A stretch of 64,000 nt of DNA from Heptranchias perlo (lineage: Eukaryota), in assembly GCF_035084215.1 (NCBI RefSeq), contig NC_090336.1, forward strand, positions 29,202,001 through 29,266,000, written 5' to 3'. The translations under genes and the position numbers were made by a program. Every line of letters starts with the position of its first letter. Position 1 is the first letter of the stretch. Shown piece by piece: positions 6,024 to 62,242 of this stretch. Under the pieces are notes generated by a model. The model worked only from the letters and a program-made list of their open reading frames with translations, made no database searches and had not been told where the DNA came from.

Positions 6024-6101
6024 CTCTTTCAGGTTGAGGAATGATGTTCTCAAGAAATTCCCTGCCAGTGACATCTTCACATTCCTTTGGTTTTGTTTGT
6101 C
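6024..6101 (-). CDS. Paralogous 78-nt cytoplasmic exon GQTKPKECEDVTGREFLENIIPQPER
   Basis: Homologous to 37441-37518 with the same splice sites and an open phase 1-1 frame. Confidence 0.6.
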
Positions 6102-6469: not shown

Positions 6470-6690
6470 TGTTAGTGGACTAATATTGCAGAGAATATGA
6501 GTTCAAGTCCTACCATGGCCGTTTGTGAAATTTGGAAATAACAGTGACCACGAAACTGTTGGTATGCTATAAAAACCCAACTGATTAACTAATATCCTTT
6601 AGGAAAAGAAATCTGCTATCTTTACGGGATCTGGTCTATATGTGATTGAGTCTTAACTACTCTCTGACGTGGCCAATAATTTACTGAGTA
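6470..6690 (+). mobile_element. Degenerate tRNA-derived SINE (related copy 43055-43270)
   Basis: GAGTTCAAGTCC B-box; shared AAAAACCCAACTG..TAAT.TCCTT.AGG core. Confidence 0.5.
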
Positions 6691-6805
6691 ACACTGATGG
6701 GAAGTAATATTTCCAGATATCTTTATGTTGGTGCCATGTTTCCCAGCTAAATGTTTTCACCATCATGTGCAGGGGTTTGCATGAAGTACAAAATGTAAAA
6801 TCTAC

Positions 6806-7228
6806 CTGCTGTAACGCTCAGTACTGCACTTTTAGTTAAAGGTTCCTCAGGTGTGTCCTGTGTAACTTCGATGATTAACTCAGCACCATCATGCTTGGAT
6901 ATGTCAGGATACAGGGTAACGCCGCAGAATATGGTGAAAGTCCCTTCAGTACGTTGTAATTCTGGCACCTCAGCACTGAAGGAATCATCTTTGTTGCAGC
7001 AACTGGATACATTTGTGAGGGGAAGAGATACTTTCGTTGGTCCTGACAATTTCTCTGCTGGTATTTGCCAGTGAAATAACTTCTTTGCTTCCTGCTCCCC
7101 TTTCCTCTTGAAGGATGTAACAATGTTCACCACCTTTGGATTGTGCAAAGTAACTTCCCAGCTCAGATCGGTTTCCTCGCCATCTTTGATTTTATTTGGC
7201 ATTTTGATATCACTAATTTTAGGAGGAA
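6806..7228 (-). CDS. Ig-like (C1-derived) domain exon, 423 nt, lacking canonical B/F-strand cysteines
   Basis: Strong acceptor tttttcttttgtag|TT and CAG|gtagat donor, phase 1-1, open; VPPKISDI...GEETDLSWEV...EGTFTIFCGVTLYPDISKHDGAELIIEVTQDTPEEPLTKSAVLSV follows the C1 strand pattern. Confidence 0.75.
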
Positions 7229-7304
7229 CTACAAAAGAAAAAACAATAATGTGAAATAAACTTTATATTCCAATTCTCCCCGATGCATTCTTTTTCCTCT
7301 CCAG

Positions 7305-8990: not shown

Positions 8991-10085
8991 CAGAATAGAA
9001 AGAGCATTGGAAATAGTGCAAACCCTGTATGAAAGGCAACAGAAATGTCACAGATATGAATGATATCATTCACTGAGTACCATCTAATTTATTTCAGAAC
9101 AATTTATATCAGAAAACTGAAAACATTTAAATTTGGAACAGGATATTCGATTCCATCTGATATCTGCATTTGTAAAATGAATTAACTAAAATTTCCAGAA
9201 TTTTATTGAAGAAAAGCACTGTCCAATCATCTGGATAACTTGGACGTACTGTTTTCTGCTTTCAAAGTTTTTTTATGCAAAAACAACAGACATAGAATTG
9301 GAGATCACAAAATGTCTTTGCAGCCTCCTCTTTTTCACATTTTTATGTTTATTGAATATTGGGAAACAATTTCCCTGCTTTAAAATGTTGTGGTGCAAAC
9401 CAGTCATTCTGACTTGGCGTTTGCTGAAAATTCTCTCAATTAGAAGTTTTAAAACAGTGCTCCGATCTGAGGCCTGCACAGTCTTGGGGCCACAAATGAC
9501 ACAAATTGATTTTTGGTCACTAAAATTATATACAATTGATAAAATATATATATAAATTAACTTGTAAAAATTTAACATGTTTGAAATAAGCAACAATACA
9601 GTTGCCACGGTTCAAATTACAATTAAAATCATGCGATACTGCTCTAGTAAAATATAAAACATCTAATATCTACACACATTTCTTGTCAACTTTTTGATAT
9701 TATAAATTCCGAATGTTCACATTTATAATGTAAACTTGTCTTGCTATAATTACACCCTTCCCCCCCCAGTTATCATCTGCATTTGTTCCCTTAGTACTGC
9801 ATTGAGGAGGTTTTCTGCAGGGCTGCTCCATCAAAGGGAAAGCAGTGGGGCAGACCCCAAATCCATTTGATTATGTAGTTCAGACCATGTCCCAAATGCA
9901 AATTACAGGGGTGATCTACACGGGTGCCGCCCACCTGAGACTGCAAGGATGCTTGAGCGACGTCCGTTGGAACATCAGCCCCGAATATGATGATACCTGT
10001 GACAATGCATCTTTGCATCAATACTGCACTGGGGTGTCAGTCAAGATATATGATCAAGTCATGGAATGAGACTTCAACCCAATAC

Positions 10086-10151
10086 CTTCTGGGTTACTTT
10101 GGGTTGCCTTATATCCCCCACCTGCTTCTCTTGTGTCCTCTGGCTTTGACA
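10086..10151 (-). CDS. Candidate shortened exon B' (66 nt) VSKPEDTREAGGGYKATQSNPE; copy at 13986-14051
   Basis: Same acceptor as exon B; a deletion juxtaposes an AAG|gtattg donor in phase 1. Confidence 0.3.
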
Positions 10152-10659
10152 CTGCGCTCAAACAAATACTTCAAAGGCTTTCTGAGACAAGAAACCTCAA
10201 CCCATTCAAACAATCTAAAGTTTAGCTCCTGTAGTCCTGCTGCATCAGAGGGAAAGCAGAGGAGCGGACCCCAAATCAACCTGAACAGACAATTCCAGAC
10301 CCTGTTCCAAATGCCAGGGACAGGGGTTATCTGTATGGATGGGGCAGGCCACTGGAGGCTGCAAGAGTGCATGAGAGACACCCGCCCCGACATCGGCTCT
10401 GAACATTGTCGTGGCACCATGTCACTCCAAGGATAATAGAGGGAGGGCAGGAAGGACCCAATGAACGGGGCCATTTTTTTCATTTTTGGCTCTCAGTGTA
10501 TTAAGGGATACAATTTTAAAAGGGAATCATTCGCCTTTGGCATCAATTAGCTTTATCTAACTCTAACACTTTCCTAAATGTCTCACTTAAATAAAAGATG
10601 CCATTTTTTCCTTCGGTCTAATACTTTTCCCAACATATTATCTTCTTTATTAATCCTAC

Positions 10660-10773
10660 CTTCAGTTCTTTGCTTATTGATCCTTTGAAGTACACCTTCT
10701 TTGTATTGATCATCTGCACCTTGCTCTGTATTCCCAGTATTGTTTAGTTCTATTGTGGAGATTTTCTGTGATT
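10660..10773 (-). CDS. Candidate repeat exon A' (114 nt)
   Basis: Tandem copy of 14560-14673. Confidence 0.42.
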
Positions 10774-11139
10774 CTACATGAGTAGAATAAAACACTATAA
10801 ACAGTATAAACCCCAGAGTGTAGAGGAACAGAAACAGCAGTGATAATGCCATTGGCCAATATTTAAAGAATAAACAGGTATTCAGTTGAGCACGATGCAA
10901 CTTTAACAAAGGAGAAGTGTCATTATTTTGAAGATGGCATCGCATTAAAGACCCTTAAAATAATGCAGAATTGTTTCTCAGTGAGAACACTAACTGCTCG
11001 TAGGCTTTTCTCGCTTCCCTGAATTTACCTCAGTCAACGAGCTTCAAATAATTGCACAACTTGGTTATTCAAGTGCTCCAGTCATTTTCCACACGATACT
11101 TTATTCTGATCCAATCATTGTGCACATACTGTACTTTTA

Positions 11140-11850
11140 TGTAAGGTACATAGATCATTGAAGTGTCATGAACAGGTGCAGAAAATAATCAAGAAGGCAA
11201 ATGGAATGCTGGCCTTTATATCTAGAGGAGTGTAGTACGAGGGGGCAGATGTTATGCTACAGTTATACAAAACCCTGGTTAGACCGCGCCTGGAGTACTG
11301 AGAGCAGTTCTGGGCACCGCACCTTCAGAAGGACATATTGGCCTTGGAGGGAGAGCAGCGTAGGTTTACTCGAATGATATCCGGACTTCAAGGGTTAAGT
11401 TACGAGGAGAGATTACACAAATTGGGGTTGTATTCTCGAGAGTTTCGAAGGTTAAGGGGTGATCTGATCGAAGTTTATAAGATATTAAGGGGAACAGATA
11501 GGGTGGATAGAGAGAAACTATTTCCGCTGGTTGGGGATTCTAGGAGTAGGGGGCACAGTCTAAAAATTAGAGCCAGACCTTTCAGGAGTGAGATTAGAAA
11601 ACATTTCTACACACAAAGGGTTGTAGAAGTTTGGAACTCTCTTCCGCAAACGGCAAATGATACTAGCTCAATTGCTAAATTTAAATCTGAGATAGATAGC
11701 TTTTTGGCAGCCAAAGGTATTAAGGGATATGGGCCAAAGGCAGGTATATGGAGTTAGATCACAGATCAGCCATGATCTTATCAAATGGCGGAGCAGACAC
11801 GAGGGGCTGAATGGCCTACTCCTGTTCCTATGTTCCAATGTTCCTATGAT
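11140..11850 (+). mobile_element. CR1 3' fragment (copy at 15040-15750)
   Basis: RRLRGDLIEVYKIL motif, TGTTCCTA-type tail. Confidence 0.88.
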
Positions 11851-12172
11851 ACATCAGTGCAGTTGCCAGAAGAAAATTTCATCAATTCTGAATTTGAGAA
11901 AAAAGAGATTCCTCTCATCTGAATACGATGGCTCCTGTAACAATGCATCTTTCCATCAATAATGTACTGGGGTGTCAGTCGAGATATATGCAGAAGTACA
12001 GAACAGGACTTCAACACACTATCTTCTGACTCAGGGGCAAGAGTGTTGAATGAAGCAACTAATATTTCCAGGAATTTTGGAGGTCACACTGTGCAGACTT
12101 CACTTCCTGGATGACAAACAATTATTTTTTTCACTTTCAACATTAGCTAAGGTGTTTCACCAAGTTTATTAC

Positions 12173-12286
12173 CTCCACCATCCTTTACATTTGTCTTTTG
12201 TTGTTCCTCAGTGCTTTGTGGATCAGGGTCAGTTTGTGCTGCCTTTTCTCCATCATCTGTTCCTCTTGTGTCCTCTGGCTTTGACA
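12173..12286 (-). CDS. Candidate repeat exon B (114 nt)
   Basis: Tandem copy of 16073-16186. Confidence 0.5.
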
Positions 12287-12856
12287 CTGCGCTCAAACAA
12301 AGGAAACAACTTTCAGCTTTAATATTTCAAAGGCTTTGAGACAAGAAACCTCAACCCATTCAGACAATCTGAATTTTAGCTCCTGAAGTCCTGTTGCATT
12401 GCTGCACCAGTGGGAAAGCAGAGGAGCGGACACTATATTCGCCTGAACAGACAATTTCAGACCCTGTCCCAGAGGCCAGGGTCAGGGGTCATCTGCATGG
12501 ATGGGGGAGGGCACTGAAGGCTGCAAGGGTGCATAAGCGATACCCGCCCCGACATTGGCTCTGAACATTGGAGTGGCAACATGTCACTCCAAGGATACTA
12601 GAGGGAGCGCAGGAAGGACCCAATGAACTGGGGCATTTTTTTCATCTTTGGCTGTCAGTGTATTAAGGGATACAATTTTAAACGGGAATCATTCGCCTTT
12701 GGGATCAATTAGCTTTATCTAACTGTAACACTTACCGACATGTCTCACTTAAATAAGTGATGACATTGTTTCCTTTGGTCTAATACTTTTCCCAACACAT
12801 TATTTTCTTTATTAATCCCACCTTCTGTTTTTGAAATTTGATCCTTTCCGACTCAC

Positions 12857-12937
12857 CTCCTTGTTTCCCGTGATCATCTGCACCTTGCTCTGTATTCCCA
12901 GTATTGTATTGTTCTATTGGGGAGGTTTTCTGTGTTT
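12857..12937 (-). CDS. Candidate repeat exon A (81 nt)
   Basis: Tandem copy of 16757-16837 with consensus GAG|gtgagt donor. Confidence 0.47.
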
Positions 12938-14559
12938 CTACATGAATAGAATAAAACACTATAAACAGTATAAACCCCATAGTGTAGAGGAACAGAAACA
13001 GCAGTGATAATGCTATTGGCCAATATTTAAAGTATAAACAGGTATTCAGTTGAGCACGATGCAACTTTATCAAAGGAGAAGTGTCATTATTTCTAAGATG
13101 GCATCGCATTAAAGACCCTTAGAATAATGTAGAATAACTTGGACGTACTGTTTTCTGCTTTCAAAGTTTTTTTATGCAAAAACAACAGACATAGAATTGG
13201 AGATCACAAAATGTCTTTGCAGCCTCCTCTTTTTCACATTTTTATGTTTATTGAATATTGGGAAACAATTTCCCTGCTTTAAAATGTTGTGGTGCAAACC
13301 AGTCATTCTGACTTGGCGTTTGCTGAAAATTCTCTCAATTAGAAGTTTTAAAACAGTGCTCCGATCTGAGGCCTGCACAGTCTTGGGGCCACAAATGAAA
13401 CAAATTGATTATTGGTCATGAAAATTATATACAATTGATAAAATATATATATAAATTAACTTGTAAAAATTTAACATGTTTGAAATAAGCAACAATACAG
13501 TTGCCACGGTTCAAATTACAATTAAAATCATGCGATACTGCTCTAGTAAAATATAAAACATCTAATATCTGCACACATTTCTTGTCAACTTTTTGATATT
13601 ATAAATTCCGAATGTTCACATTTATAATGTAAACTTGTCTTGCTATAATTACACCCTTCCCCCCCACAGTTATCATCTGCATTTGTTCCCTTAGTACTGC
13701 ATTGAGGAGGTTTTCTGCAGGGCTGCTCCATCAAAGGGAAAGCAGTGGGGCAGACCCCAAATCCATTTGATTATGTAGTTCAGACCATGTCCCAAATGCA
13801 AATTACAGGGGTGATCTACACGGGTGCCGCCCACCTGAGACTGCAAGGATGCTTGAGCGACGTCCGTTGGAACATCAGCCCCGAATATGATGATACCTGT
13901 GACAATGCATCTTTGCATCAATACTGCACTGGGGTGTCAGTCAAGATATATGATCAAGTCATGGAATGAGACTTCAACCCAATACCTTCTGGGTTACTTT
14001 GGGTTGCCTTATATCCCCCACCTGCTTCTCTTGTGTCCTCTGGCTTTGACACTGCGCTCAAACAAATACTTCAAAGGCTTTCTGAGACAAGAAACCTCAA
14101 CCCATTCAAACAATCTAAAGTTTAGCTCCTGTAGTCCTGCTGCATCAGAGGGAAAGCAGAGGAGCGGACCCCAAATCAACCTGAACAGACAATTCCAGAC
14201 CCTGTTCCAAATGCCAAGGACAGGGGTTATCTGTATGGATGGGGCAGGCCACTGGAGGCTGCAAGAGTGCATGAGAGACACCCGCCCCGACATCGGCTCT
14301 GAACATTGTCGTGGCACCATGTCACTCCAAGGATAATAGAGGGAGGGCAGGAAGGACCCAATGAACGGGGCCATTTTTTTCATTTTTGGCTCTCAGTGTA
14401 TTAAGGGATACAATTTTAAAAGGGAATCATTCGCCTTTAGCATCAATTAGCTTTATCTAACTCTAACACTTTCCTAAATGTCTCACTTAAATAAAAGATG
14501 CCATTTTTTCCTTCGGTCTAATACTTTTCCCAACATATTATCTTCTTTATTAATCCTAC

Positions 14560-14673
14560 CTTCAGTTCTTTGCTTATTGATCCTTTGAAGTACACCTTCT
14601 TTGTATTGATCATCTGCACCTTGCTCTGTATTCCCAGTATTGTTTAGTTCTATTGTGGAGATTTTCTGTGATT
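14560..14673 (-). CDS. Candidate repeat exon A' (114 nt) ESQKISTIELNNTGNTEQGADDQYKEGVLQRINKQRTE
   Basis: actcatgtag| acceptor, AAG|gtagga donor, phase 1-1. Confidence 0.42.
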
Positions 14674-16072
14674 CTACATGAGTAGAATAAAACACTATAA
14701 ACAGTATAAACCCCAGAGTGTAGAGGAACAGAAACAGCAGTGATAATGCCATTGGCCAATATTTAAAGAATAAACAGGTATTCAGTTGAGCACGATGCAA
14801 CTTTAACAAAGGAGAAGTGTCATTATTTTGAAGATGGCATCGCATTAAAGACCCTTAAAATAATGCAGAATTGTTTCTCAGTGAGAACACTAACTGCTCG
14901 TAGGCTTTTCTCGCTTCCCTGAATTTACCTCAGTCAACGAGCTTCAAATAATTGCACAACTTGGTTATTCAAGTGCTCCAGTCATTTTCCACACGATACT
15001 TTATTCTGATCCAATCATTGTGCACATACTGTACTTTTATGTAAGGTACATAGATCATTGAAGTGTCATGAACAGGTGCATAAAATAATCAAGAAGGCAA
15101 ATGGAATGCTGCCCTTTATATCTAGAGGAGTGTAGTACAAGGGGGCAGATGTTATGCTACAGTTATACAAAACCCTGGTTAGACCGCGCCTGGAGTACTG
15201 AGAGCAGTTCTGGGCATCGCACCTTCAGAAGGACATATTGGCCTTGGAGGGAGAGCAGCGTAGGTTTACTCGAATGATATCCGGACTTCAAGGGTTAAGT
15301 TACGAGGAGAGATTACACAAATTGGGGTTGTATTCTCGAGAGTTTCGAAGGTTAAGGGGTGATCTGATCGAAGTTTATAAGATATTAAGGGGAACAGATA
15401 AGGTGGATAGAGAGAAACTATTTCCGCTGGTTGGGGATTTTAGAAGGAGGGGGCACAGTCTAAAAATTAGAGCCAGACCTTTCAGGAGTGAGATTAGAAA
15501 ACATTTCTACACACAAAGGGTTGTAGAAGTTTGGAACTCTCTTCCACAAACGGCAAATGATACTAGCTCAATTGCTAAATTTAAATCTGAGACAGATAGC
15601 TTTTTGGCAGCCAAAGGTATTAAGGGATATGGGCCAAAGGCAGGTATATGGAGTTAGATCACAGATCAGCCATGATCTTATCAAATGGCAGAGCAGACAC
15701 GAGGGGCTGAATGGCCTACTCCTGTTCCTATGTTCCAATGTTCCTATGATACATCAGTGCAGTTGCCAGAAGAAAATTTCATCAATTCTGAATTTGAGAA
15801 AAAAGAGATTCCTCTCATCTGAATACGATGGCTCCTGTAACAATGCATCTTTCCATCAATAATGTACTGGGGTGTCAGTCGAGATATATGCAGAAGTACA
15901 GAACAGGACTTCAACACACTATCTTCTGACTCAGGGGCAAGAGTGTTGAATGAAGCAACTAATATTTCCAGGAATTTTGGAGGTCACACTGTGCAGACTT
16001 CATTTCCTGGATGACAAACAATTATTTTTTTCACTTTCAACATTAGCTAAGGTGTTTCACCAAGTTTATTAC

Positions 16073-16186
16073 CTCCACCATCCTTTACATTTGTCTTTTG
16101 TTGTTCCTCAGTGCTTTGTGGATCAGGGTCAGTTTGTGCTGCCTTTTCTCCATCATCTGTTCCTCTTGTGTCCTCTGGCTTTGACA
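16073..16186 (-). CDS. Candidate repeat exon B (114 nt) VSKPEDTRGTDDGEKAAQTDPDPQSTEEQQKTNVKDGG
   Basis: tttgtttgagcgcag| acceptor, GAG|gtaata donor, phase 1-1, open. Confidence 0.5.
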
Positions 16187-16756
16187 CTGCGCTCAAACAA
16201 AGGAAACAACTTTCAGCTTTAATATTTCAAAGGCTTTGAGACAAGAAACCTCAACCCATTCAGACAATCTGAATTTTAGCTCCTGAAGTCCTGTTGCATT
16301 GCTGCACCAGTGGGAAAGCAGAGGAGCGGACACTATATTCGCCTGAACAGACAATTTCAGACCCTGTCCCAGAGGCCAGGGTCAGGGGTCATCTGCATGG
16401 ATGGGGGAGGGCAATGAAGGCTGCAAGGGTGCATAAGCGATACCCGCCCCGACATTGGCTCTGAACATTGGAGTGGCAACATGTCACTCCAAGGATACTA
16501 GAGGGAGCGCAGGAAGGACCCAATGAACTGGGGCATTTTTTTCATCTTTGGCTCTCAGTGCATTAAGGGATACAATTTTAAATGGGAATCATTCGCCTTT
16601 GGGATCAATTAGCTTTATCTAACTGTAACACTTACCTATATGTCTCACTTAAATAAGTGATGACATTGTTTCCTTTGGTCTAATACTTTTCCCAACACAT
16701 TATTTTCTTTATTAATCCCACCTTCTGTTTTTGAAATTTGATCCTTTCTGCCTCAC

Positions 16757-16837
16757 CTCCTTGTTTCCCGTGATCATCTGCACCTTGCTCTGTTTTCCCA
16801 GTATTGTTTTGTTCTATTGGGGAGGTTTTCTGTGTTT
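16757..16837 (-). CDS. Candidate repeat exon A (81 nt) ETQKTSPIEQNNTGKTEQGADDHGKQG
   Basis: attcatgtag| acceptor, GAG|gtgagg donor, phase 1-1, open. Confidence 0.45.
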
Positions 16838-17329
16838 CTACATGAATAGAATAAAACACTATAAACAGTATAAGCCCCATAGTGTAGAGGAGCAGAAACA
16901 ACAGTGATAATGCTATTGGCCAATATTTAAAGAATAAACAGGTATTCAGTTGAGCATGATGCAAATTTATCAAAGGAGAAGTGTCATTATTTCTAAGATG
17001 GCATCGCATTAAAGACCCGTAGAATTGTTTCTCAGTGAGGACACTAACTGCTCGTAGGCTTATCTCCCTTCCCTGAATTTACCTCATTCAAGGAGCTTCA
17101 AATAATATTGGCGTAATTGCACAACTTGGTTATTCAAGTGCTCCAGTCATGTTCCTCACGATACTTTATTCTGATCGAATTATTGTGCATATTCTGTACT
17201 TTTATGTCAGGATACATCATTGGAGTTACCGGAAGAAAATTTCATCAATTCTGAATTTGAGGAAAGAGGAGATTCCTCTCATCTGAATACGAAGGTGCCT
17301 GTAATATTTCCAGATATCTTTATAACTGC

Positions 17330-18897
17330 ATGCTGTAACTGCATGTTAACTTTCTGTGTTACGAGGACACCCAAATTTTTCTGAACACCACCATTTAATA
17401 GTTTCCCACCACTTAAAAAATATTCTGTTCTTCTATTCTTCCTACCAAAGTGAATAATCTCACATTTCCCCAAATTATACTCCATCTGCCACCTTCTTGC
17501 CATTTACTTAACCTGTCTATATCCCTTTGCACACTATTTGTGTCCTCCTCACAGCATACTTTCCCACCTAGCTTTGTATTGTTAGCAAACTTGGATATAT
17601 TACACTCGATCCCTTCATCTAAGTCATTGATATAGATTGTAAATAGCTGAGGCCCAAGCATTGATCCTTGTGGCACCCCACTAGTTACATCCTGCCAATG
17701 TGAGAATGACCCGTTTATTCCTACTCTCTGTTTTCTGTCCATTTACCAGTCCTCTATCCATGCTAATATATTACCCCCAACCCCATGAGCCCTCATCTTG
17801 TGTAATAAACTTTTGTGTGGCACCTTATCGAATGCCTTTTGAAAATCCAAATATACTACATCCACTGGTTCCCCTTTCTCTACCCTGTTAGTTACATCCT
17901 CAAAAAACTCTAATAGATTTGTCAAGCACGATTTCCCTTTCATAATACCATGCTGACTCTTCCTAATCACATTATGATTTTCTAAGTGCCCTATTACCAC
18001 TTCCTTAATAATGGATTCCAGAATATTCCCGGTGGCCGATATCAGGCTAACTGGCCTGTACTTCCCTGTTTTCCCTCTCCCTCCTTACTTGAGTAGCAGT
18101 ATTCCATTTGCTACCTTTCAATCCACTGGGGCCGTTCTAGAATCCAGGCAATTTTGGAAGATCACAACCAAAGCATCCACTATCTCTGCTGCCACCTCTT
18201 TTAGAACTCTAAGGTGTAGCCCATCTGGTCCAGGGGATTTGTCAGCTTTTAGTCCCATTAATTTCTTTAGTTCTTTTTCTTTACTAATATTAATTACTTT
18301 AAGTTACTCACTCTCATTAGCTCCTCAGTTCTCCACTATTACTGGTATGTATTTTGTGTCTTCGACTGTGAAGACAGATACAAATTATTTGTTTAACATC
18401 TCTGCCATTTCCTTATTCTCCATTATATTTTCTCCTGTCTCAGCCTCTAAGGGACCCATGTTTACTTTTGCTACTCTTTTCATTTTTACGTACTTGTAGA
18501 AGCTTTTACAATCTGTTTTTATATTTCTTGCTCTCTTACTCTCATATTCTATTTTTCCCTTGTTATCAATTTTTTGGTCATCCTTTGCTCGTTTCTAAAA
18601 CTCTCCCAATCCTTAGGCTTACTACTCTTCTTGGCAACATTACAAGCCTCTTCTTTTAATCTAATACGATCAGAATAGAAAGAGCATTGGAAATAGTGCA
18701 AACACTGAATGAAAGGCAACAGAAATGTCACAGATATGAATGATATCATTCACTGAGTAACATCTAATTTATTCCAGAACAATTTATATCAGAAAACTGA
18801 AAACATTTAAATTTCGAACAGGATATTTGATTCCATCTGATATTTGCATTTGTAAAATGAATTAACTAAAATTTCCAGAATTTTATTGAAGAAAAGC
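17330..18897 (-). mobile_element. CR1 ORF2 fragment plus flank; duplicate of 7650-9217
   Basis: Near-identical sequence including the non-TE flank ending TTTTATTGAAGAAAAGC. Confidence 0.9.
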
Positions 18898-20775
18898 CAA
18901 AGGGGGAGGTACTTTTTTGTTCCTCTTTTTATGGAAGTGAAAACTTACCATAAATTTCTTTGACTTTTTTAAAACACCAATTTTTTGCCAACACAAAGCC
19001 CCAGAGTCTCCCTCCCCGCCAGGCTATTCCAGTGACATGAATTACGAAAAGCATTTTGAAGCAGCATGCAAACAAGACAAGACAGCGGAGATGTATTGTT
19101 GTGCACGACTTCAAACTGGCCTAAGAGCTGCATTGGAACTGTCCAACCTCAGGTAACCATGCTCAGATGGAGGATGCAGATTTTCTAACTTGTAGCTTGT
19201 TCCCCTGGGGTCTGAAGGCCATTTTGAGGTCTTGGCCCTCACTGTTTCCGAAGCAGCTACTGCAGAATGCTCGGAATGTGCCCATAATTGACGTAATACT
19301 GGAGCACCATACCAGGGAGGGAAATTACACTTGACCGTCTCCATGTCAGAAATAAAATTGACAGATTTTAGAAAATGGTCAAGGAAATTTCTGATGATAT
19401 TGCTTCCATCTATAAAATATGAGTAAGTTGAACTAAAAGTACCTCCCATAGACATCCCCTCCCCCTATACAATGTAGAGTTGCATCACTGTACTCCTTTC
19501 CTGCATCTCCTTGACTTTAATTAAGCAACAACATTTTTCCATTGGACCAGCTTCCAGATTATTTTTTCCCTGCAACTCATCTCCTTGTCTGCAGTTATCA
19601 TCTGTAACTTGCTTTGTTTCCTCAGTGTTGCTTTCTTCACCTGTGGAGGTTTTCTTTGATTCTATGTTAATTCAAAGGAAATCACACTGTAAAAAGTGTA
19701 AACCCCATCGTGTAAAGGAGCAGAAACAGCGGTGATAATGCTGTTGGCCAATACTGATAGAAAACACATGTATTCAGTTGGACAAAATGTCGCTTCACCA
19801 AAAGGGGAAATGTCATTAACTTTCAGAATGGCTCCTCCTCGGAGAATCTCAGAATAATGAAGACCTGTACCTCTGAGAATATTAACTGCCAGTGAACCTC
19901 TCTTGCTGCATTAAATTTACCTTTGACAACTAGTTTGCATTAGGACTGGCAGAATTCCATAACTTGATTACTTCAGTGGCATTTTCCCCCTTTTTTATGT
20001 TCCAATTGGTTTTCTCCAGGAAAGCAGAGTATAAAAATATATGTCCCATTTATGTTCTAACATGATTCAGATCACATCATAAACAAATGCTTGAATTTAA
20101 AGTATAATTCCGTCACTGGCAATTGCAGTAAGAGTAGTCGGGGGAGCTAATAGGATACTCTGCCAATATTCCACATCATTTCAATGCTTCCGAGTACTGG
20201 AAAACAATGGAAGGAAACAAACCATCAGGGTCTGTTTCTGTTGTGGTGGAAAGAATTGGAATGAGGAAAACTTTACAGGATAAGGTTATATACAAATTTT
20301 GCTTTATTTCAGACTGCCTCCAGAAAAGAATATTGGTGCAATTTACATTAACATGCTGTTCTTCAGTTCAAATGTAATGAAGGAGTTAAATTCATCGAAC
20401 AGCAGAGCTGAAAAATATAGTTTAGGATTCAAACAAGTATTCTGAGCCAAAGTGCTTTAAACAATGAAAGTTAGTTTTGAGATTTCAAGAACATTCGTAC
20501 CTATTCAGGTGGGGATGTTTCAATTCATGTAAGCCTAGAGTGAAGTGTTTGCTGAGGACATACTCTTGGGAGAGGGGATAGTTGGTTAGGTGCAGGGACG
20601 ATGTGCAAACTAGCCACGGCACCATGGTTCAGGGGGCCATTCAAGTGGGGGGAGTAAAAAGGAATGTGGTTGTTGTAGGCGACAGTATAGTTAGAGGGAT
20701 AGACACTGTTCTCTGCAGCCAAGAGCGAGAGTCCTGAAGGCTGTGTTGCCAGGGTTAAGGACATCTCCTCAGGGC

Positions 20776-33485: not shown

Positions 33486-33579
33486 TAAAAATTCCCTGCC
33501 AGTGGCATCTTCACTTTCCTTTGGTTTTGTTTGTCCTTAATTATGTCCTTATAATAGATATTGATTGAAAGCAATCAAT

Positions 33580-37440: not shown

Positions 37441-37518
37441 CTCTTTCAGATTGAGGAACTTTCTTTTCAAGAAGTGGTTTGCCAGTGGCATCTTCACTTT
37501 CCTGTGGTTTTGTTTGTC
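37441..37518 (-). CDS. Cytoplasmic exon (78 nt) GQTKPQESEDATGKPLLEKKVPQSER
   Basis: gtttaag|GA acceptor, GAG|gtaatt donor, phase 1-1; paralog at 6024-6101 keeps length, frame and splice sites. Confidence 0.72.
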
Positions 37519-40500
37519 CTTAAACAACAATGCAGTGAAAATATATTAGCCAGCACACAAACTGATCTGAATCCACAGCAGCTAGTTCCTGAATGTGACA
37601 ATTTTTTTAAGTACATCATTCTAGATCCTAATTTAATCTCCCTATCGTACATATGTGAAACAAGAATTAACTTGACGTTATCAACTTAAAAAGGAAAAAT
37701 TCATTCATAGTTCAAATAATAAATTTCACAAGTTCTTCCATTGCTGTCCCATTTCCTCATGTTGTGCAAATAATTAAAAGGGGTGGCTTTTCATATGGTT
37801 TTTAATTTCAAACATTTTTATACTCCGCCTTTTTATAGTATTCGCTATGTGATGTCCACATGGATAATAAGGAAAATTATTTCTTGAAATGTAAGCAAGC
37901 TACATATTAAAGACTCTGTATTAATACATGAAATACCTTCCACACCTGCCAAGTGAAGTAAAGACTTCTTTTTTTCAGCTGATAGACCCTACTTCAACAC
38001 CAACCCATAATATTTAATCACCATTTTAGCTTATATCTTGTTAGATTATCATAATGAGGCCAGTCAATGTTAGTCAAATGGATTGTTAGAGAAAAAGACA
38101 ATACACAAATTGTGATTATTTGTTAAGAAATCATTACTTTTTCTACAGTTCAGTACAATAACAACAAATATTGACCATCTTTAAACAAATTGGCATGCAA
38201 GAGGTTAATAACCTGGTAGTTTTTATTTTAATATTTGTAGTTGTTCTTTATGAAGATGAAAAGGACATTACCGTTACATTTTTTCTTCCAGATATAAACT
38301 CCTAAACATGCTGCACAAATCAGCACAACAAATCCACAGATGCCTCCAATAATTGGTCCAATTTGTAATGATTCTGCTAAAGTATAAAACATACACAGCT
38401 CTTTGAAAACTTGTCAATAAATAAATTGTGTCATTTGCATACATTCATTAGAATTTATAACTATCCTGTTCTATTAATCAGATCTGTTCATTACCTTCTA
38501 CAAAATGGGATAGAAATTGGCATGCATTGTGTCTGTTTTTCAGGTGTGAAATGGGCGCAACAGAGTCCAGAGTTTAGGCATTGTAGCTGCTTTTTTGTCC
38601 TTGACTATCCCTTTTTATGTGCACTTTGTTAAGACAAGCTATAGTATGTAAACTATCCCTAAACTTGACATGCACAAAATAGGGAGCCGTGTTGAGGTAA
38701 TGCTAATTGACTGAAGAGCTGATTGAGGGAAGTGGAACGATAGAGATTCAAGTAAAGGAGAAAAATACATAGAACTTCAGAAAAAAGAAAGGGTAACTTT
38801 CTTGGACTTCAATAACTGACAGGGCCATGCAAACAGAAAATTCTACAAGGATGACAAGACAAAGTTTACACCCTGATTTCAACCAACCCTGATTGCTTCA
38901 GTTCTCCTAAAAATTGAGTTGAACTATCCTGAATATAGAACACAACATATCAGTCTCATAAATTCTATTTTTACAAAGTATTAAAAAACGTTGTGCAGTG
39001 CAGAAGAAAGCCACAATGTATTATGAGGCAAGTCCAACTAGTCTCAGATCAGCAGTTTTCCAGGGCCCACGTGAACAATGTGACCTGGGGCCTGAAAAGC
39101 TGATGTCTGCTCCAGAAGCAGATGGCTGGTAATTTCTGGATGCTATGTGTGAGGAATGCCATGGGAGCATCATTATTGAAAGAAAAGAAATTAGAAATGA
39201 AAGCTGTACTCTTCTTTAACCAGATCTTACCTTCAACTGGGTCAGTTTCCAGTGCAAAATTGTCAGGGAATGTTTTATGCATCACCACACATCTGTACTT
39301 AGTACGATCATCCAACATTGGTTCAATTCTTATTTTACTGGAAATGCTGAATGTCCCATCACTGTTCATAACTAGATCCTCAGTGGGTTGACTTGTTGAA
39401 ATATTTTCCATTTTTCCATTTGATAACTTTAACCAACTGATATCAATCTGCTTAGGATAAAATTCCTTAACATCACATGTCACAAAGGTTTCTGTACCAT
39501 TTGCAGTCATAACTTTTTGTGTGGAAGTGCTGACTTTTGGTTGGGCTGTGTAAGAGAGAACAGGATATGGGAGTCATTAGTACATTACCATATATCAAGC
39601 TAGATCTTACTGATTCTTGCTCTGAGAAACCAGAAAAATACAACCTAGTTATATCAGAAAAGCTACTGCACTGCTTCTTCTGTCCTTCACTCCCTTCATA
39701 CCTTTTTCTTGGTTTTCTTTTCAAATTTCTTCCCATCTTTGTTGGAAACACTGTGGGGGATGGTTTTTGTGTCCAAATATTCCCTGTTTACATCTATTTT
39801 TGGCATGCAGATGGGGTGTAGAAGACAAAGAAATCAGGTGAAAAGGAATCCCACTGGATTGCCACCTAATCTCAGCCCTCCACCAATTTCAAGAACATCA
39901 GCTCCACTGTGACGAGCGAAACCTCAATCCTCCATTGACACAGTCCCAGCTGCAAACCTCACAACCTCATGACACTGAAGTAGCTCCACATAGGAGATTA
40001 AGATCAAATATGGAAACAGTTTGTCACATGGGTTAGTCACAGTGATAAGTGGTCGTAGTAGTAGTGGTAGTAGGGCACAATGAAAGGATAATATGGTACT
40101 TTTCTGGTAACTTTGTATACATGTGTATTTCTTCCCAGGAAGGCCTCCTGTCATCCCTGCTTTTGGTGATTGATGTTTGTAATTGCCCTCTTCCAGAGAT
40201 AATATCAGAGGTATTACAGATTAGCTGAACGGTTTTCTGAGCGCAAGGCAAGGGACTGTAAAGGGTTTTATTGTGTCATGCGGATGGAGGGCACCCTCTA
40301 CATTGGATGATGACCTCTTGCCTGGGGACATGTGGTGCTGGCCCACCCCTTCTTTCTCCTGGGCTTCTTCATTATGAGCAGGGGATTAGTCTTCAACACC
40401 TTCTTTGTCTTCATCTCCTATGTTTGGAAGGCCCAATCCCCTTGTAACAGCGAAATTATGGAAGATGCAACAAACCACTAGAATTCTGGACATCCTGCTG

Positions 40501-43500
40501 GACTATACTGCAGGGCTCCCCGATGGTCTGTTCCACAATGATCCTGATAGTACCCAAGGCCTCACTGAATCTGTTTTCTGCTTCAGTACTTGGATTTTGA
40601 AATGCAAGGCTGAAGCTGGTACCCTGGTCTCCTATCACCCACCCTATCACCTTGCTCTGGCTGATCAGTGCAGATATCCTGGATTAAGAATAAGCATCAT
40701 GGCTATTCCCCGGGTCACAGGCGTTGCCGTGCATAATGAGATGGCTAACCTCACTCACTGGTCATTCAGGGAACGAATTCCATCCCTTCCTTCCCTCATT
40801 CTCCCCTCCTTATCCATGGTAGAGATTCTCATCACCACAGCCCTGAACTCTGGAACTCTCTCCCTGAATCTCTTCACCTTGTGATCTCTTTCACTACCTT
40901 CAAAATCGTTCTCATTTACCGTGCTTTACGTTTCTTTCCCTTGCTTGTCTCCTAAAGTGCCATGGGTTGTTTTGTTACATTAAAGAAGTTATACCAATGT
41001 TTTTTTGTTGTTAAAGTCCTTTTTTTCCCCATTTTTTCCTTTCTTGATTTGTTCCCCTCTTTCGCTGAAGGCTTTGACACATTCGTGGGATTTGACTTTA
41101 TGGGTGTTGGCCACCTCCAGTACCTTCCCAAGTGGTACTTATTAATGAATTAGGCTTGATGTGAGTGTTAGCGGGCTATTTGACAGTAAAGGGTATTTCC
41201 TCACTTTACACACACTTCCAGAAGTGGTTTCTGCATTGTAATCAGGACCAGAATCCCAGACGAATTTTCCTTCCCTTAACTTATGTTTACTGAGGCCAAA
41301 TCTAGCAGCCTGATTGCTGCCCCAACTGAGGTTGGTTAACTTTGTAAAGACTGCATTCTTCATGGTCTGTATCGCTCAGTTACTGACTGGTATGCTCATT
41401 GTGTCATCAGGGAAGCCAGAATGTTGATGTTTGCAAAACAATGTTGCCATTTTTAGGTTGCAAACAAATATTATTGCTTATAGCAGCAAATGCCCAGTAC
41501 TGTGAATGTAACGGGAAATTATATAACAAAGCAGAAAAATGATTTTTCTCTCTTACCTGATACTCGCATTACTGAACTCTTTTGTTCTTTCTGGGGAGTA
41601 ACGAAAACAATGCAGGTGTATTTTCCTTCTTCATTAAGTTGTACATTTGGAAGGTAAAGTGAAGCATTTCCTTTCCGTAAAGCGGCGTCAGAAATCTTTG
41701 CTCCATTTCTCTCTGGGGAATGTTTCCCTCCATCAAATATATACACTCTTCTCTTTACTTGCGATTCAAAAACCCATTCAACAGCTACATGTTTGAGGTC
41801 AAGTTCTGGTTTATTGTAGCCAGTTACTCTGCATTTTAGAAGAGCATCTTCATTTACCGAAACTTCCAGCGGAGAGGGAAATATCTCCAATTCTAAAGTG
41901 CCTTAAAAATAATTTAATATTTTAAAAAATTAATACATATAAAAGTACCTTTTATTTGAAATAGATGCAAAATTATAGAAGGAGTTTTAAAATTTTTAGC
42001 TGTTGTTCCACACAACAAAAAAAGACATTTGAAAACTGATTGCTACAAAGTATCAATTCTGTAACAATTTCCTGTAAATAGTTGCCCATATTTCTAGTAA
42101 ACTTTCATTTTTAGACAGTGAAAGGTTTTCTTTCTTAAGAATATAAATTTTATAGGTTTGGAGTCTTTCCATAAAATAAAGTATGTAAAATATTTTTGAT
42201 TCTGATTCTGTCTTACTGCGCTAACATGTTCCAGTCCTGTATCTCCTACTGTAATACCATAGTTTTAAAAATTTCTTCAGCAAGGGTAAATTACAGGCAA
42301 GTTTCACACTGACTACAGTTACACCATTACTAGTGCAAACCAAAATGGGGATGGGGGCGTTCCAATCTAATTTGTATCAATACAGCTCCAAACTAATACT
42401 GTATATTTACACTGCACTATTGGCAGCAGCACTCCTGATCTCCTTAAGAAAACACACCAGGGATCATTTATTTATGTCAGCATCACAAATTTGCTCAAAT
42501 GAAAATTGCTAAGTTCCAATTTGTAAATAACTTTACAGATTGTCACATCTATTTAGTCAGTATTCTACTATGTCAGCTGACAAACGATAGTAAAGTACAA
42601 CTGCTCATAACCATATATGATTTTTTTTATGATCAAAAGCCTTCAAAACAATAATGAACTCCTGAAATAATACAAACGGTTAATGTACTCATACTATATT
42701 ATGCAGGTGTTGGTCCACTTAAAAACTAATACGCACAGCAACATAGTGTGAGCGGCTTTTATACTTGAACTTTGGTGAACAGAAGTATCAATATTTACGT
42801 CTATAAGTACATGTATAAAAAGTGCTACAACTGCACCACTGCATAAGCCTGTGTAAAGTAATTTTTTTTAAAGTTAAAGTAAAATTTTTTAAAAATTAAA
42901 AACATGATAGTTTCAAAAAGAAATTTCCTTTATTTTCATTATTTTTCAGAGCAAGTTTGAGGAGCAATGCTTCAATATGATACAATTGGACATTATTTGG
43001 ATTGAACATTAATAGTCTTTATTGTAAGTTACATTCAATTTTAAATTATTATTAGTCTAGTGGTTACGGTACTGGACCAGCAACCCAGAGGTTGTGAATT
43101 CACAATCCCACTATGGCAAAGTTGTGAAACTGAATTCAATAAATAAATTTGTGTGCTGGCACCGGAAAATGACGTATCGTAAAAACCCAACTGGTTCACT
43201 AATGTCCTTCAGGGAAGGAAACCTATCACCACTGCTTGGTCTGGCCGACATGTAACTCCAGTCTCACACTATCGGGATAAATTTAACTTTTGGAGATGGT
43301 GGAAAATAAGCAGGAGCAGATCGGTCACCATTATACAATTCCAATATTCCTTTTCATTGATGTTAACGAAAGCAAAATTGGATGGGATGTATAATGGGTC
43401 GAAAAATTAGAATAAATTCAGCAAATAATATCATAGAATTTTACAGTACAGAAGGTGATTCGACTCTCTGAAAGAGCTATCCACTTAGTCCTAGTCCCCT

Positions 43501-46500: not shown

Positions 46501-47475
46501 GAGTCAATAAATCAAAGCGGAAACTCTGCCCCATTGTACTTAATTTTACAAATATTAGTGGCGTTCTATTACAGTGCAACATTTAATTTGACAACGATTA
46601 GTAACATTGTATTACAGTGCAACATTAAATCCTACCACAGCGATTCATGATTGAAAGAGTACTCATTATTATGGCAATAATCTTTACATTTAAAAAAAAT
46701 TCTGTTAAAAGAGTAAACAGAAGGGCAAAATACATAAAAGTATGAGCTTAGATGTGCAAAGTTCTTAAGTATCAGAAAAGTATAAATTAAATACTATTCT
46801 GTTTCTATAACATTAGATATTATCGGTGGGTTGTGACAGTGTACAGTCCAGTTCAACGGAAAAACTTCAAACTTTTCTATTTGTGCTTTCAGTTTGTGAC
46901 CACACAAGTTTGTAAAGTAATAGAAGTTGTTAAAGAAAAATCAGATCAGTAATATTCACTTGATGGAGAAATTGAAAGCAAAATGACAACACAAAAGCTC
47001 ATCTTTGAACTGGAAACTCCAATATTATAATGTCCCCCCCCCCCGCCCCCGATATATATCTGAAAACCTGCAGTTTAACAGTGTCTTAGAATTATTGCCT
47101 GTTTTACATTCCTTATTACACAGCTATTTATTAATTGAGGACCGACACTTAAGAATCATTATACTGCACAACCCTTTTTGTTGCGTCCAAATAAAACCCA
47201 AGACTACGAGTATTTCAATTACTGAACGTTTTGGTAAACCGTTGGTTAAAAAAACCTCCATGTAGCACAGAGGGGGACTAACCTCTGTGCTTGGACGGAG
47301 AATTGGTCTGAAGCAAAATAAAAGGTCGAGTTTATGATCCCGAACTACGTTAAATGGTTGTTTGTCTCGGCTTCCAGTGCCATACAATCTGACCCAAGAG
47401 AAACCAGAACCCTGGTATTTTACCTGATAATGAAATGAAGGACACGATGACAACAGACAAAAATAAGATCTTCAT
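37441..47475 (-). CDS. NCR3LG1: Spliced B7-family type I membrane protein (leader-IgV-IgC1-TM-cytoplasmic), NCR3LG1/B7-H6-like; span of the confidently joined exons
   Basis: Five exons with AG/GT boundaries, all phase 1, join into one open frame: MKILFLSVVIVSFISLS-GTLELEIFPSPLEV...-AQPKVSTS...-AESLQIGPIIGGICGFVVLICAACLGVYIWKKKCN-GQTKPQESEDATGKPLLEKKVPQSER. Family assigned from the V+C1+TM architecture and motif resemblance; tapasin-related identity not excluded. Confidence 0.7.
38272..38376 (-). CDS. Transmembrane exon (105 nt)
   Basis: ctttag|CAG (NAGNAG) acceptor, ACG|gtaatg donor; IIGGICGFVVLICAACLGVYIW followed by KKK stop-transfer. Confidence 0.88.
39231..39545 (-). CDS. IgC1 domain exon (315 nt)
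   Basis: ttacacag|CC acceptor, AAG|gtaaga donor; VTCDVKEFYPKQIDISW...NSDGTFSISS...YRCVVMH C1-set motifs. Confidence 0.93.
41557..41901 (-). CDS. IgV domain exon (345 nt)
   Basis: ttttaag|GC acceptor, CAG|gtaaga donor; LKC...VAVEW...GNASLYLPNVQLNEEGKYTC canonical V-set motifs. Confidence 0.93.
43430..44200 (-). mobile_element. Highly decayed CR1 3' fragment
   Basis: Residual CR1 RT/3' similarity (CAAAACTGGACACAATATTC, TCACTTTGCATTT). Confidence 0.55.
44208..44445 (-). mobile_element. L2-type LINE/SINE 3' end with (CAA)n tail
   Basis: ACAACAACAACTTGCATTTATATAGCACCTTT terminus. Confidence 0.6.
45260..45607. mobile_element. Penelope pLTR remnant with inverted duplicate
   Basis: Same family as 34894-35060; 45446-45518 inverted relative to 45537-45607. 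Confidence 0.75.
45446..45480 (+). ncRNA. Minimal type I hammerhead ribozyme (inverted copy 45573-45607)
   Basis: CAC-CUGACGA-A-GGAG-AAAGC-CUCC-GAA-AGCU-U-GUG. Confidence 0.72.
46960..47002 (-). CDS. Duplicated alternative leader exon MSFCVVILLSISPS(S)
   Basis: Shares TTCCAGTTCAAAGATGA with exon 1, hydrophobic, phase-1 donor CAA|gtgaat (weak), own GC box at about 47034-47050. Confidence 0.45.
47424..47475 (-). CDS. Exon 1: signal peptide MKILFLSVVIVSFISLS(G)
   Basis: ATG in AAAGATGA context, hydrophobic 17 aa, phase-1 donor CAG|gtaaaa; GC box and ISRE just upstream. Confidence 0.85.
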
Positions 47476-60289: not shown

Positions 60290-62242
60290 TTCTTAAACAA
60301 AGGCACAACATTTGCTACCCTCCAATCTTCAGGCACCTCACCTGTAGCTGTCGATGATTCAAATATCTCTGCTCGGGGACCCGCAATTTCCTCCCTAACC
60401 TCCCATAACGTCCTGGTATACATTTCATCAGGTCCCGGAGATTTATCTACCTTGATGCGCATTAAGACTTCCAGCACCTCCCTCTCTGTAATATGTACAC
60501 TCCTCAAGACATCACTATTTATTTCCCCAAGTTCCCTAACATCCATGCCTTTCTCAACCGTAAATACCGATGCGAAATATTCATTTAGGATCTCACCCAT
60601 CTCTTGTGGTTCCGCACATAGATGACCTTGTTGATCCTTTAGAGGCCCTACTTTCTCCCTAGTTACTCTTTTGCCCTGGTTCAAATTACAATTAAAATCA
60701 TGCGATACTGCTCTAGTCATATATAAAACATCTAATGTCTACACACATTTCTTGTCAACTTTTTGATATTATAAATTCCGAATGTTCACATTTATAATGT
60801 AAACTTGTCTTGCTATAATTACACCCTTCCCCCCCATTATCATCTGCATCTCACTTTCTACTGCATTGTGGAGGTTTTCTGTGGGGCTGCTCCATCAAAG
60901 GGAAAGCAGTGGAGCAGACCCCAAATCCATTTGATTACGTAGCTCAGACCATGTCCCAGATGCAAATTACAGGGGTCATCGACACGGGTGCCGCCCACCT
61001 GAGACTGCAAGGATGCTTGAGCGATGTCCGTTGGAGCATCAGCCCCGAATATGATGATACCTGTGACAATGCATCTTTGCATCAATACTGCACTGGGGTG
61101 TCAGTCAAGATATATGATCAAGTCATGGAATGAGACTTCAACCCAGTACCTTCTGACACAGAGACAAGAATGCTGAATGAGGCAACTAAAATTTCCAGGA
61201 ATTTGTGAAGTCACAATGTGCAGACTTTAATCCATGGATTATAAACTATTATTTTTTTCACTTTCAATAGTAGATAAGGCGTTTGAGCAAATTTATTATC
61301 ACCATCGTCCTTTACACATGTTGTGTTGTCTTGTTTCTCAGTACTGTGAGCATCAGGGTTACTTTGGGTTGCCTTATATCCCCCACCTGCTTCTCTCGTG
61401 TCCTCTGGCTTTGACACTGCGCTCAAACAAATACTTCAAAGGCTTTCTGAGACAAGAAACCTCAACCCATTCAAACAATCTAAAGTTTAGCTCCTGTAGT
61501 CCTGCTGCACCAGAGGGAAAGCAGAGGATTGGACCCCAAATCCACCTGAACAGACAATTCCAGACCCTGTCCCAGAGGCGAGGGACAGGGGTTATCTGTA
61601 TGGACGGGGCAGGCCACTGGAGGCTGCAAGGGTGCATGAGAGACACCCGCCCCGACATCGGCTCTGAACATTGTCGTGGCACCATGTCACTCTAAGGATA
61701 ATAGAGGGAGGGCAGGAAGGACCCAATGAAAGGGGTCATTTTTTTCATTTTTGGCTCTCAGTGTATTAAGGGATACAATTTTAAAAGGGAATCATTCGTC
61801 TTTGGCATTAATTAGCTTTATCTAACTCTAACACTTTCCTAAATGTCTCATTAAATAAAAGATGCCATTTTTTCCTTCGGTCTAATACTTTTCCCAACAT
61901 ATTATCTTCTTTATTAATCCCACCTTCAGTTCTTTGCTTATTGATCCTTTGAAACGCACCTTCTTCTTTGTATTGATCATCTGCACCTTGCTCTGTTTTC
62001 TCATTATTGTTTTGTTCCATTGTGGAGGTTTTCTGTGATTCCACATGAATAGAATCAAACATTATAAACAGTATAAACCCCATAGTGTAGAGGAACAGAA
62101 ACAGCAGTGATAATGCTATTGGCCAATATTTAAAGAATAAACAGGTATTCAGTTGAGCACGATGCAACTTTAACAAAGGAGAAGTGTCATTATTTCTAAG
62201 ATGGCATCGCATTAAAGACCCTTAGAATAATGCAGAATTGTT

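What the first reader, a model, noticed from the sequence alone, without database searches (positions are those of the whole stretch)
10086..19700. Tandemly amplified array of symmetric phase-1 acidic micro-exons: an expandable cytoplasmic tail
Seen: alternating A-type (81/114 nt) and B-type (114/66 nt) segments, each with an AG acceptor, GT donor, phase 1-1 and an open hydrophilic T/E/D/Q/K-rich frame. They repeat through nested duplications (about 2.2 kb, 3.9 kb and 9.7 kb spacings); a diverged A copy sits near 19.6 kb. Inference: because the exons are symmetric, any number can be included in frame. Tail length between TM and the Ig-like exon could therefore vary by splicing and copy number.
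Basis: partly seen in the sequence, partly recalled or inferred. Interest (0 to 1): 0.78.

Follow-up and report, generated by a model that had tools for sequence, protein, structure and literature searches.

The report
Shark B7-H6 tail grown by exon-copying
A shark relative of the killer-cell ligand B7-H6 has lengthened its predicted inside-the-cell tail with a recently duplicated set of short spliced exons, likely a floppy spacer copied from the neighbouring gene; sharks and rays have stretched this tail in many different ways, but tuning of its length by splicing is not shown.

Summary
The segments are real and mostly real exons. They lie on the minus strand of a V-C1-TM gene of the B7-H6/NCR3LG1 cluster beside KCNJ11. 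Spliced RNA contigs of one sample join A81>B114, B114>A114, A114>A81 and A114>Ig-like exon at the predicted sites. The used unit is therefore A81-B114-A114 (103 aa) twice, as in RefSeq XP_067849687.1. Corrections: the 66-nt B copies are skipped deletion remnants; the 19.6 kb copy has no donor; the 9.7 kb spacing is a flanking retroelement duplication; every exon of the gene is phase 1-1, so symmetry is not special. The exons change as fast as introns (pN/pS 1.1 to 2.0, not different from neutral) and read as disordered. The array resembles a larger one in the upstream paralogue. Orthologues carry 0 to 8 cysteine-less Ig-fold domains or unrelated acidic repeats behind the membrane. Variable inclusion was neither seen nor excluded. 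The scan has noted cytoplasmic Ig tails of B7-H6 before on other DNA. Verdict: new variant of a known kind, moderate interest.

The parts
47424..47475 (-). Probable signal-peptide exon (MKILFLSVVIVSFISLS), phase-1 donor
   Evidence: weak tblastn hit to orthologue leaders; sequence; not checked in RNA
41557..41901 (-). V-set Ig exon, 345 nt, phase 1-1
   Evidence: Pfam V-set E 8.8e-10; boundaries; run X1 holds 0.38 of its words
39231..39545 (-). C1-set Ig exon, 315 nt, phase 1-1
   Evidence: Pfam C1-set E 1.8e-13; P0013 map
38272..38376 (-). Transmembrane exon, 105 nt, ending WKKKCN
   Evidence: hydropathy 2.66; P0013 map
37441..37518 (-). Linker exon 1, 78 nt
   Evidence: P0013 map; boundaries
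19549..19661 (-).
   Evidence: skipped by P0013
17323..18897 (.). Retroelement-type fragment, right flank copy (96% to 7644-9217)
   Evidence: the element label is from my knowledge of the ORF pieces
16757..16837 (-). Exon A81a
   Evidence: splice sites; in P0013; its two private bases were not seen in RNA contigs
16073..16186 (-). Exon B114a (identical to B114b)
   Evidence: RNA contig ends at both boundaries
14560..14673 (-). Exon A114a (identical to A114b)
   Evidence: RNA joints 12173>14673 and 14560>12937
13986..14051 (-). B66a: 3'-deleted B copy, skipped
   Evidence: joint 14560>12937 crosses it; deletion against 61416
12857..12937 (-). Exon A81b
   Evidence: RNA joints on both sides with copy-b bases at 12894 and 12908
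12173..12286 (-). Exon B114b
   Evidence: RNA joint 12857>12286 in X1 and X14
10660..10773 (-). Exon A114b
   Evidence: splice sites; A114>Ig-like joint
10086..10151 (-). B66b: 3'-deleted B copy, skipped
   Evidence: A114 joins the Ig-like exon directly; not in P0013
7644..9217 (.). Retroelement-type fragment, left flank copy
6806..7228 (-). Post-TM Ig-fold exon ('IgX'), 423 nt, both canonical cysteines absent
   Evidence: RNA contig 0 mismatches; model pLDDT 75; V-type Ig folds Z 11.0, rmsd 2.7, 112 aligned; end (the end entered was 3 nt off)
6024..6101 (-). Linker exon 2, 78 nt; the tail goes on left of the window
61303..62040 (-). Last A/B unit of the upstream paralogue's larger array, closest relative (96%) of the A114-B66 unit; its A copy has lost the acceptor AG

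Best explanation
The array is a set of six short exons (A81-B114-A114, twice), joined in spliced RNA contigs, that adds about 206 residues of predicted disordered, mildly acidic chain to the predicted cytoplasmic tail of a shark B7-H6-family protein, where it likely acts as a sequence-tolerant spacer between the membrane and a cysteine-less Ig-fold domain. Shown: gene identity by sequence and synteny, exon use, two dead copy types, neutral-looking sequence change. Inferred history: the A and B exons are related to the small exons at the 3' end of this gene; they were amplified in the upstream paralogue; a block of about 8 kb was copied into this gene's intron and the 3.9 kb unit then doubled. 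Because all exons are phase 1-1, and in-frame Gly codons (G|GT) offer new phase-1 donors, copies can be gained, shortened (135 > 117/114 > 81 nt) or lost without breaking the frame. Inferred function: the ectodomain would bind an NKp30-like receptor; the tail would serve trafficking or scaffolding through the Ig domain and short motifs, the repeats setting spacing and charge. Inclusion is most likely mainly constitutive.
For: RNA joints at exact boundaries agree with RefSeq P0013. Best single V+C match in the PDB is B7-H6 (81.9 bits, against 46.8 for B7-H3 and 55.5 for TAPBPR; query the whale-shark orthologue). KCNJ11 lies about 214 kb left of the window, as NCR3LG1 lies next to KCNJ11 in human and cattle gene lists (PMC3608171, PMC7655849, passages). 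Exon divergence among copies is not below intron divergence (A 0.080 vs 0.052 upstream; B 0.106 vs 0.071 and 0.089); 2 synonymous to 18 non-synonymous variants in A (p 0.40) and 9 to 38 in B (p 0.86) fit neutrality. FoldIndex -0.395; no ITIM, ITAM or Yxx-phi match in the array. Both indels inside exons are 3 nt, against 1 of 7 in flanking introns; the 36 nt released to intron in A81 copies carry a 1-nt deletion. Window units are 92-96% identical to paralogue units; B is 66% like the C exon and C 66-69% like D. Orthologues (clade support 100/99) have unrelated repeat units of 19-36 aa (6 of 8 proteins tested at 0.79 or more).
Against: RNA comes from one sample: joints in 2 of 3 runs of it, none in X15 or in the other organism's X2; depth 4-12; two joints have 30-letter short sides; the runs are only guessed to be RNA; they may not be independent of the RefSeq model. 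The linker>A81a joint and A81a's private bases were not seen. Absence of stops is weak: 0.8 and 2.2-2.5 expected, and three diverged edge copies (two with broken frames) were left out. Topology, NKp30 binding and any spacer role are untested. The direction of copying rests on one derived deletion and on the older copies lying in the paralogue.
Confidence: 0.65

Rival explanations
1. Regulated molecular ruler: cells include a variable number of the symmetric exons, and individuals differ in copy number, to tune the distance of the Ig domain from the membrane.
For: All used exons are phase 1-1. A114>IgX could come from either identical copy. RefSeq lists isoforms of orthologues with different repeat numbers: white shark 7 or 8 IgX, zebra shark 2 or 3, cloudy catshark 3 or 4. 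In-frame alternative donors exist inside the exons.
Against: All 4 joints seen fit one path; no skipping of A81, B114 or A114 appeared. Isoform models in near-identical repeats are unreliable (my knowledge). No data on individuals.
Confidence: 0.2
2. Diversifying selection: the tail is a target of pathogen proteins that remove B7-H6 from the surface, and repeat turnover is an escape.
For: pN/pS 2.0 in A cores; both differences between A81a and A81b change residues; each lineage has a different tail; herpesviruses down-regulate human B7-H6 (PMC6514059, passage).
Against: The excess is not significant (p 0.40, 0.86); unequal crossing-over alone gives such turnover; no shark pathogen evidence.
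Confidence: 0.1
3. The 3.9 kb doubling is an assembly artefact (two alleles laid in tandem), or the transcript is a non-functional by-product.
For: 99.05% identity; B114 and A114 copies identical; A81a-specific bases not seen in RNA.
Against: The joint A114>A81b needs an A114 upstream of A81b, so two units in one molecule unless back-spliced. V, C1, TM and IgX frames are open, and V and IgX are 60-77% identical to orthologues.
Confidence: 0.05

Closest known systems
Human B7-H6 (NCR3LG1), ligand of NKp30
   Same: Type I protein with distal V and proximal C1 domain; best single-pair PDB match; next to KCNJ11.
   Different: The human tail is homologous to GAG with ITIM, SH2 and SH3 motifs (PMC2715080, passage). 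Here the tail is about 510 aa of short-exon repeats plus an Ig-fold domain, and the gene is one of at least six paralogues.
RefSeq XP_067849687.1 'aspartic and glutamic acid-rich protein-like' [Heptranchias perlo] (P0013)
   Same: Models this gene and uses the same six array exons.
   Different: Named by composition only; starts at the end of the V exon, so it lacks leader and V; not recognised as B7-H6.
Non-mammalian B7-H6-like proteins with a chain of C1-like domains behind the TM (chimaera, rays, bichir, lungfish, amphibians; the paralogues left of this window)
   Same: V-C1-TM followed by Ig-like domains (33 of 50 new representatives, counted by eye; names). IgX is related to their first post-TM domain.
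   Different: This clade has lost both canonical cysteines in that domain, lacks the later C1-like chain, and fills the tail with repeats of IgX or of short hydrophilic exons.
Symmetric-exon repeat stalks and tails of surface proteins (mucin-like stalks, CD44 or CD45 variable exons; recalled)
   Same: Short in-frame low-complexity exons that can be duplicated or skipped.
   Different: Those are extracellular and, for CD44 and CD45, regulated; here predicted cytoplasmic, and regulation is not shown.

Membership tests
B7-H6 / NCR3LG1 | Type I layout: leader, V, C1, TM | tested here: met
B7-H6 / NCR3LG1 | Ectodomain closer to B7-H6 than to other B7 members or TAPBPR | tested here: met
   81.9 bits vs 46.8 and 55.5 per V+C pair, using orthologue P0033; 4Ig B7-H3 ranks first only by summing two stretches. 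No human sequence was in the tree.
B7-H6 / NCR3LG1 | Position next to KCNJ11 | tested here: met
   KCNJ11-like ORF, E 6e-179, at the far end of the cluster; mammalian order. NUCB2 on the other side not looked for.
B7-H6 / NCR3LG1 | Binds NKp30 | not tested
   no shark NKp30 sequence was fetched; no complex job run
B7-H6 / NCR3LG1 (human form) | GAG-like tail with ITIM | tested here: not met
   no ITIM match; tail is repeats plus Ig fold. A feature of the human protein, not of the family as seen.
Ig C1-set (for IgX) | Ig beta-sandwich fold | tested here: met
   AlphaFold pLDDT 75.2, pTM 0.71; best matches V-type Ig domains, Z 11.0, rmsd 2.7, 112 aligned; Foldseek TM about 0.6
Ig C1-set (for IgX) | B- and F-strand cysteines | tested here: not met
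   W and I at those columns; of 30 first post-TM domains 2 keep both, 9 one, 19 none
Ig C1-set (for IgX) | Profile match to C1-set | tested here: inconclusive
   no Pfam hit; hhalign to the family's own C1: probability 39%, E 3e-4, 92 columns, against 1.5% for V
Alternatively spliced cassette array | Exons are spliced at the predicted sites | tested here: met
   3 of 4 array exon types; B66 skipped
Alternatively spliced cassette array | More than one exon chain in RNA | tested here: inconclusive
   4 joints, one path, one sample, short contigs, identical copies

The most novel reading that the evidence does not exclude
In one elasmobranch B7-H6 clade the cytoplasmic tail is a tunable module: symmetric exon cassettes move between neighbouring paralogues, expand independently in each lineage, and are spliced in variable number, so that cells set how many disulfide-free Ig domains and how much acidic spacer hang under an NK-cell ligand.
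Probability: 0.2. Interest if true: 0.7.

Novelty: new variant of a known kind. Interest (0 to 1): 0.42.

Why it matters
It shows exon birth, donor shift, death and probable transfer between paralogues in progress inside an immune-ligand gene, with RNA support. It also identifies a mislabelled RefSeq protein as a B7-H6 paralogue. The tail of B7-H6 has been rebuilt repeatedly (C1-like chains, cysteine-less Ig repeats, acidic repeats, a GAG-like piece in humans), which makes the question of what this tail does testable by natural variants. The array itself looks like tolerated spacer, which limits the score.

Tried and rejected
B66 and the 19.6 kb copy as exons: rejected. Purifying selection on repeat sequence: not found. 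The A downstream-intron divergence (0.158) was not used because one copy breaks off there. First RNA lay over 6500-20500 was swamped by retroelement contigs; the second avoided them. No listed holder was on record as RNA. No contig with the upstream paralogue's A or B variants was laid at 85% likeness: no evidence either way. Pfam gave nothing for IgX alone; PF25404 PH_29 on P0006 had no stretch passing alone and the fold search does not favour it. ESM Atlas best score 0.80, no lead. Earlier notes near this place: none. Ten literature searches (listings only) showed no title or abstract on shark B7-H6 tails. The two papers most likely to treat them (Flajnik 2012, PMC3709836; Ohta and Flajnik 2015, PMC4594805) are not held, so absence from print is not established; their supplements may bear on it. 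Scripts (last part) and 50 failed and were rerun; the alignment for the B66 deletion was uninformative, so the deletion rests.
Full report
Setting. The window is G000:C12:29,202,001-29,266,000 of a 3.25 Gb genome. A database protein 99% identical over the Ig-like exon, on a contig of the same length, is labelled Heptranchias perlo (P0013, XP_067849687.1). I read 420 kb around the window. Coordinates outside the window are given relative to it.

The gene. On the minus strand lie a probable leader (about 47475), V (41901-41557), C1 (39545-39231), TM (38376-38272), a 78-nt linker (37518-37441), the array, an Ig-like exon (7228-6806), a second linker (6101-6024) and small exons left of the window ending ENPSQ. 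With the whale-shark orthologue as query, the best single V+C match among solved structures is human B7-H6 (81.9 bits; B7-H3 46.8 per pair; TAPBPR 55.5). Five V exons, six C1-TM pairs and many post-TM Ig-like exons form a cluster that ends at a KCNJ11-like gene about 214 kb left of the window. Human and cattle gene lists put NCR3LG1 beside KCNJ11 (passages of PMC3608171 and PMC7655849). So this is a B7-H6-family paralogue. An ectodomain tree of 23 rows (8 of 25 chosen proteins dropped by the cutting motif; no human row) places it with shark and ray orthologues at 100/99, apart from the upstream paralogue's clade (98/99).

The observation. All eight segments exist with AG and GT ends and open frames. 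The 3.9 kb units differ at 37 of 3892 columns; B114, A114 and B66 copies are identical and the A81 copies differ at two bases. Contigs of public runs (kind guessed as RNA; X1, X14, X15 are one sample, X2 another organism) were laid on 11870-15030. Cover from near-identical contigs falls on A81, B114 and A114 only. Joints: 12857>12286 (X1 depth 11.8, X14 4.3), 12173>14673 (X1 11.8), 14560>12937 (X1 7.2), and a loose end at 14560 identical to the start of the Ig-like exon. X15 and X2 gave no joints. The last two joints have 30 letters on the short side, one below the tool's bar for bridging. RefSeq P0013 uses the same chain: linker, A81, B114, A114, A81, B114, A114, IgX; it may rest on the same RNA. 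The A114>A81 contig carries both copy-b bases, which needs two units in one molecule unless it is back-spliced. The linker>A81a joint was not seen.

B66 is the first 63 or so bases of the B exon at 61416 followed by a deletion of about 200 bp (61155-61353 missing); its donor is former intron and RNA skips it. The 19.6 kb copy belongs to an older exon type (D) found at -3.9, -18 and -34.8 kb; it is cut short, has no donor, and the contig laid on it fits the -18 kb copy. The 9.7 kb spacing is a 1.57 kb retroelement-type piece on both flanks of the array. Every internal exon tested is phase 1-1, so symmetry is the gene's default.

Origin. A larger array (about 10 A and 10 B copies, 61-85 kb, period near 1.48 kb) lies in the tail region of the upstream paralogue. 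The window's A114-B66 unit is 96% identical to the unit at 62040-61416, its A81-B114 unit 92-93% to others, and 9216-10091 matches 53884-54269 and 60671-61155 at 94-96%. The paralogue holds the most diverged copies and the undeleted B, so I infer copying from it into this gene, then the 3.9 kb doubling. B resembles the C exon (66%) and C resembles D (66-69%), so the small exons are probably one family. Exon length shifts by donor change: D 135 nt, A 117 or 114, A 81. Each donor falls at an in-frame G|GT, and the 36 nt that became intron in six A81 copies carries a 1-nt deletion.

Selection. Over 13 A and 10 full-length B copies (left out: two B66, three diverged edge copies, D copies), exons differ as much as or more than nearby intron (A 0.080 vs 0.052; B 0.106 vs 0.071 and 0.089). 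Variants are 2 synonymous to 18 non-synonymous in A (p 0.40) and 9 to 38 in B (p 0.86). No stop occurs where 0.8 and 2.2-2.5 are expected; both exonic indels are 3 nt against 1 of 7 intronic ones. These are weak signs that frame matters and sequence does not. The 206-aa insert is T/Q/E/G/D/K-rich, D+E 21%, K+R 12%, FoldIndex -0.395, with no ITIM, ITAM or Yxx-phi match.

The Ig-like domain. Folded with 8 sequences it gives a beta-sandwich (pLDDT 75.2) matching V-type Ig domains at Z 11.0, rmsd 2.7, with a weak profile match to the family's C1 (probability 39%). A profile search of 1.84 billion proteins gave 57 hits; 33 of the 50 new ones show a TM followed by such domains. The 20 I looked up come from chimaera, sharks, rays, bichirs, lungfish and amphibians, one named NCR3LG1. 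Of 30 first post-TM domains, 2 keep both canonical cysteines, 9 one, 19 none; the window's has none. This, a single TM and the basic stop-transfer WKKK argue for a cytoplasmic tail, by inference. Earlier notes of this scan reported the cytoplasmic Ig chain of B7-H6 on other DNA and in a neighbouring paralogue (read after my own tests).

Across species. Orthologue models carry 7-8 IgX (white shark), 7 (horn shark), 4 (basking shark), 3-4 (cloudy catshark), 2-3 (zebra shark), 2 (Mustelus), 1 (skate, stingray, this gene), 0 (whale-shark model). Six of 8 proteins tested also have hydrophilic repeats of 19-36 aa with different sequences. Tail expansion is thus a habit of the clade. These are annotation models, not checked against RNA here.

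Mechanism and verdict. Most likely a frame-safe exon architecture lets unequal exchange add spacer to the tail at little cost, and the repeats are constitutive disordered linker (0.65). Regulated length (0.2), diversifying selection (0.1) and artefact (0.05) remain. Papers seen: passages of PMC2715080, PMC6514059, PMC13262535, PMC3608171, PMC7655849; mainly reference-list hits in PMC11599192, PMC3964593, PMC10751288; the rest as search listings. The two key comparative papers are not held. New variant of a known kind; interest 0.42.

Noticed in passing
G000:C12, window-relative +61,000 to +85,000 (L001-L003): Larger A/B array in the upstream B7-H6 paralogue: about 10 units, some identical; three A acceptors are GAG, one AG is lost, edge copies are frameshifted. 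No IgX exon and no ENPSQ end were found for this paralogue, though its catshark and Mustelus orthologues have IgX.
   Followed up: partly
window 62226-63389 (+): A 387-aa ORF at the edge of a roughly 7.6 kb insertion that splits the paralogue's array; looks gag-like to me (recalled; no Pfam hit). Opposite strand to the gene; probably unrelated to the GAG-like human tail.
   Followed up: no
window-relative -29,700 to -39,000 (L013-L014): An orphan second tail after the gene's stop: frameshifted IgX, linker, intact IgX, D copy, second ENPSQ exon, without V, C1 or TM. Relic or alternative 3' end.
   Followed up: no
window-relative -65,000 to -186,000 (L016, L024-L036) and +160,000 to +199,000: Four further paralogues with C1-TM followed by five or six C1-like exons; graded cysteine loss in the first post-TM domain.
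   Followed up: partly
window 37441-37518 and orthologue linkers: A Leu-Leu or similar pair after acidic residues recurs just behind the TM (DATGKPLL here; DDSDRSLL, ESERSLL, EESQSLM in relatives). It does not fit the strict [DE]xxxL[LI] pattern here; possible sorting signal, untested.
   Followed up: partly
window 33480-33540: A partial copy of the linker exon (44 nt, 98%) in the long intron; not in P0013.
   Followed up: no
window 22361-25567 (+): Uninterrupted 1068-aa endonuclease/reverse-transcriptase-type ORF with a 95% copy at 57153-60179: a young LINE-type element in the intron (label recalled).
   Followed up: no
P0013 / XP_067849687.1: The RefSeq model starts at the last residues of the V exon and omits leader and V, although both are intact in the window.
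   Followed up: yes
window-relative +86,250 to +88,850 and +131,600 to +146,200: Long minisatellites (periods about 25 and 24 nt; 2.6 kb and 14.5 kb) within the cluster.
   Followed up: no
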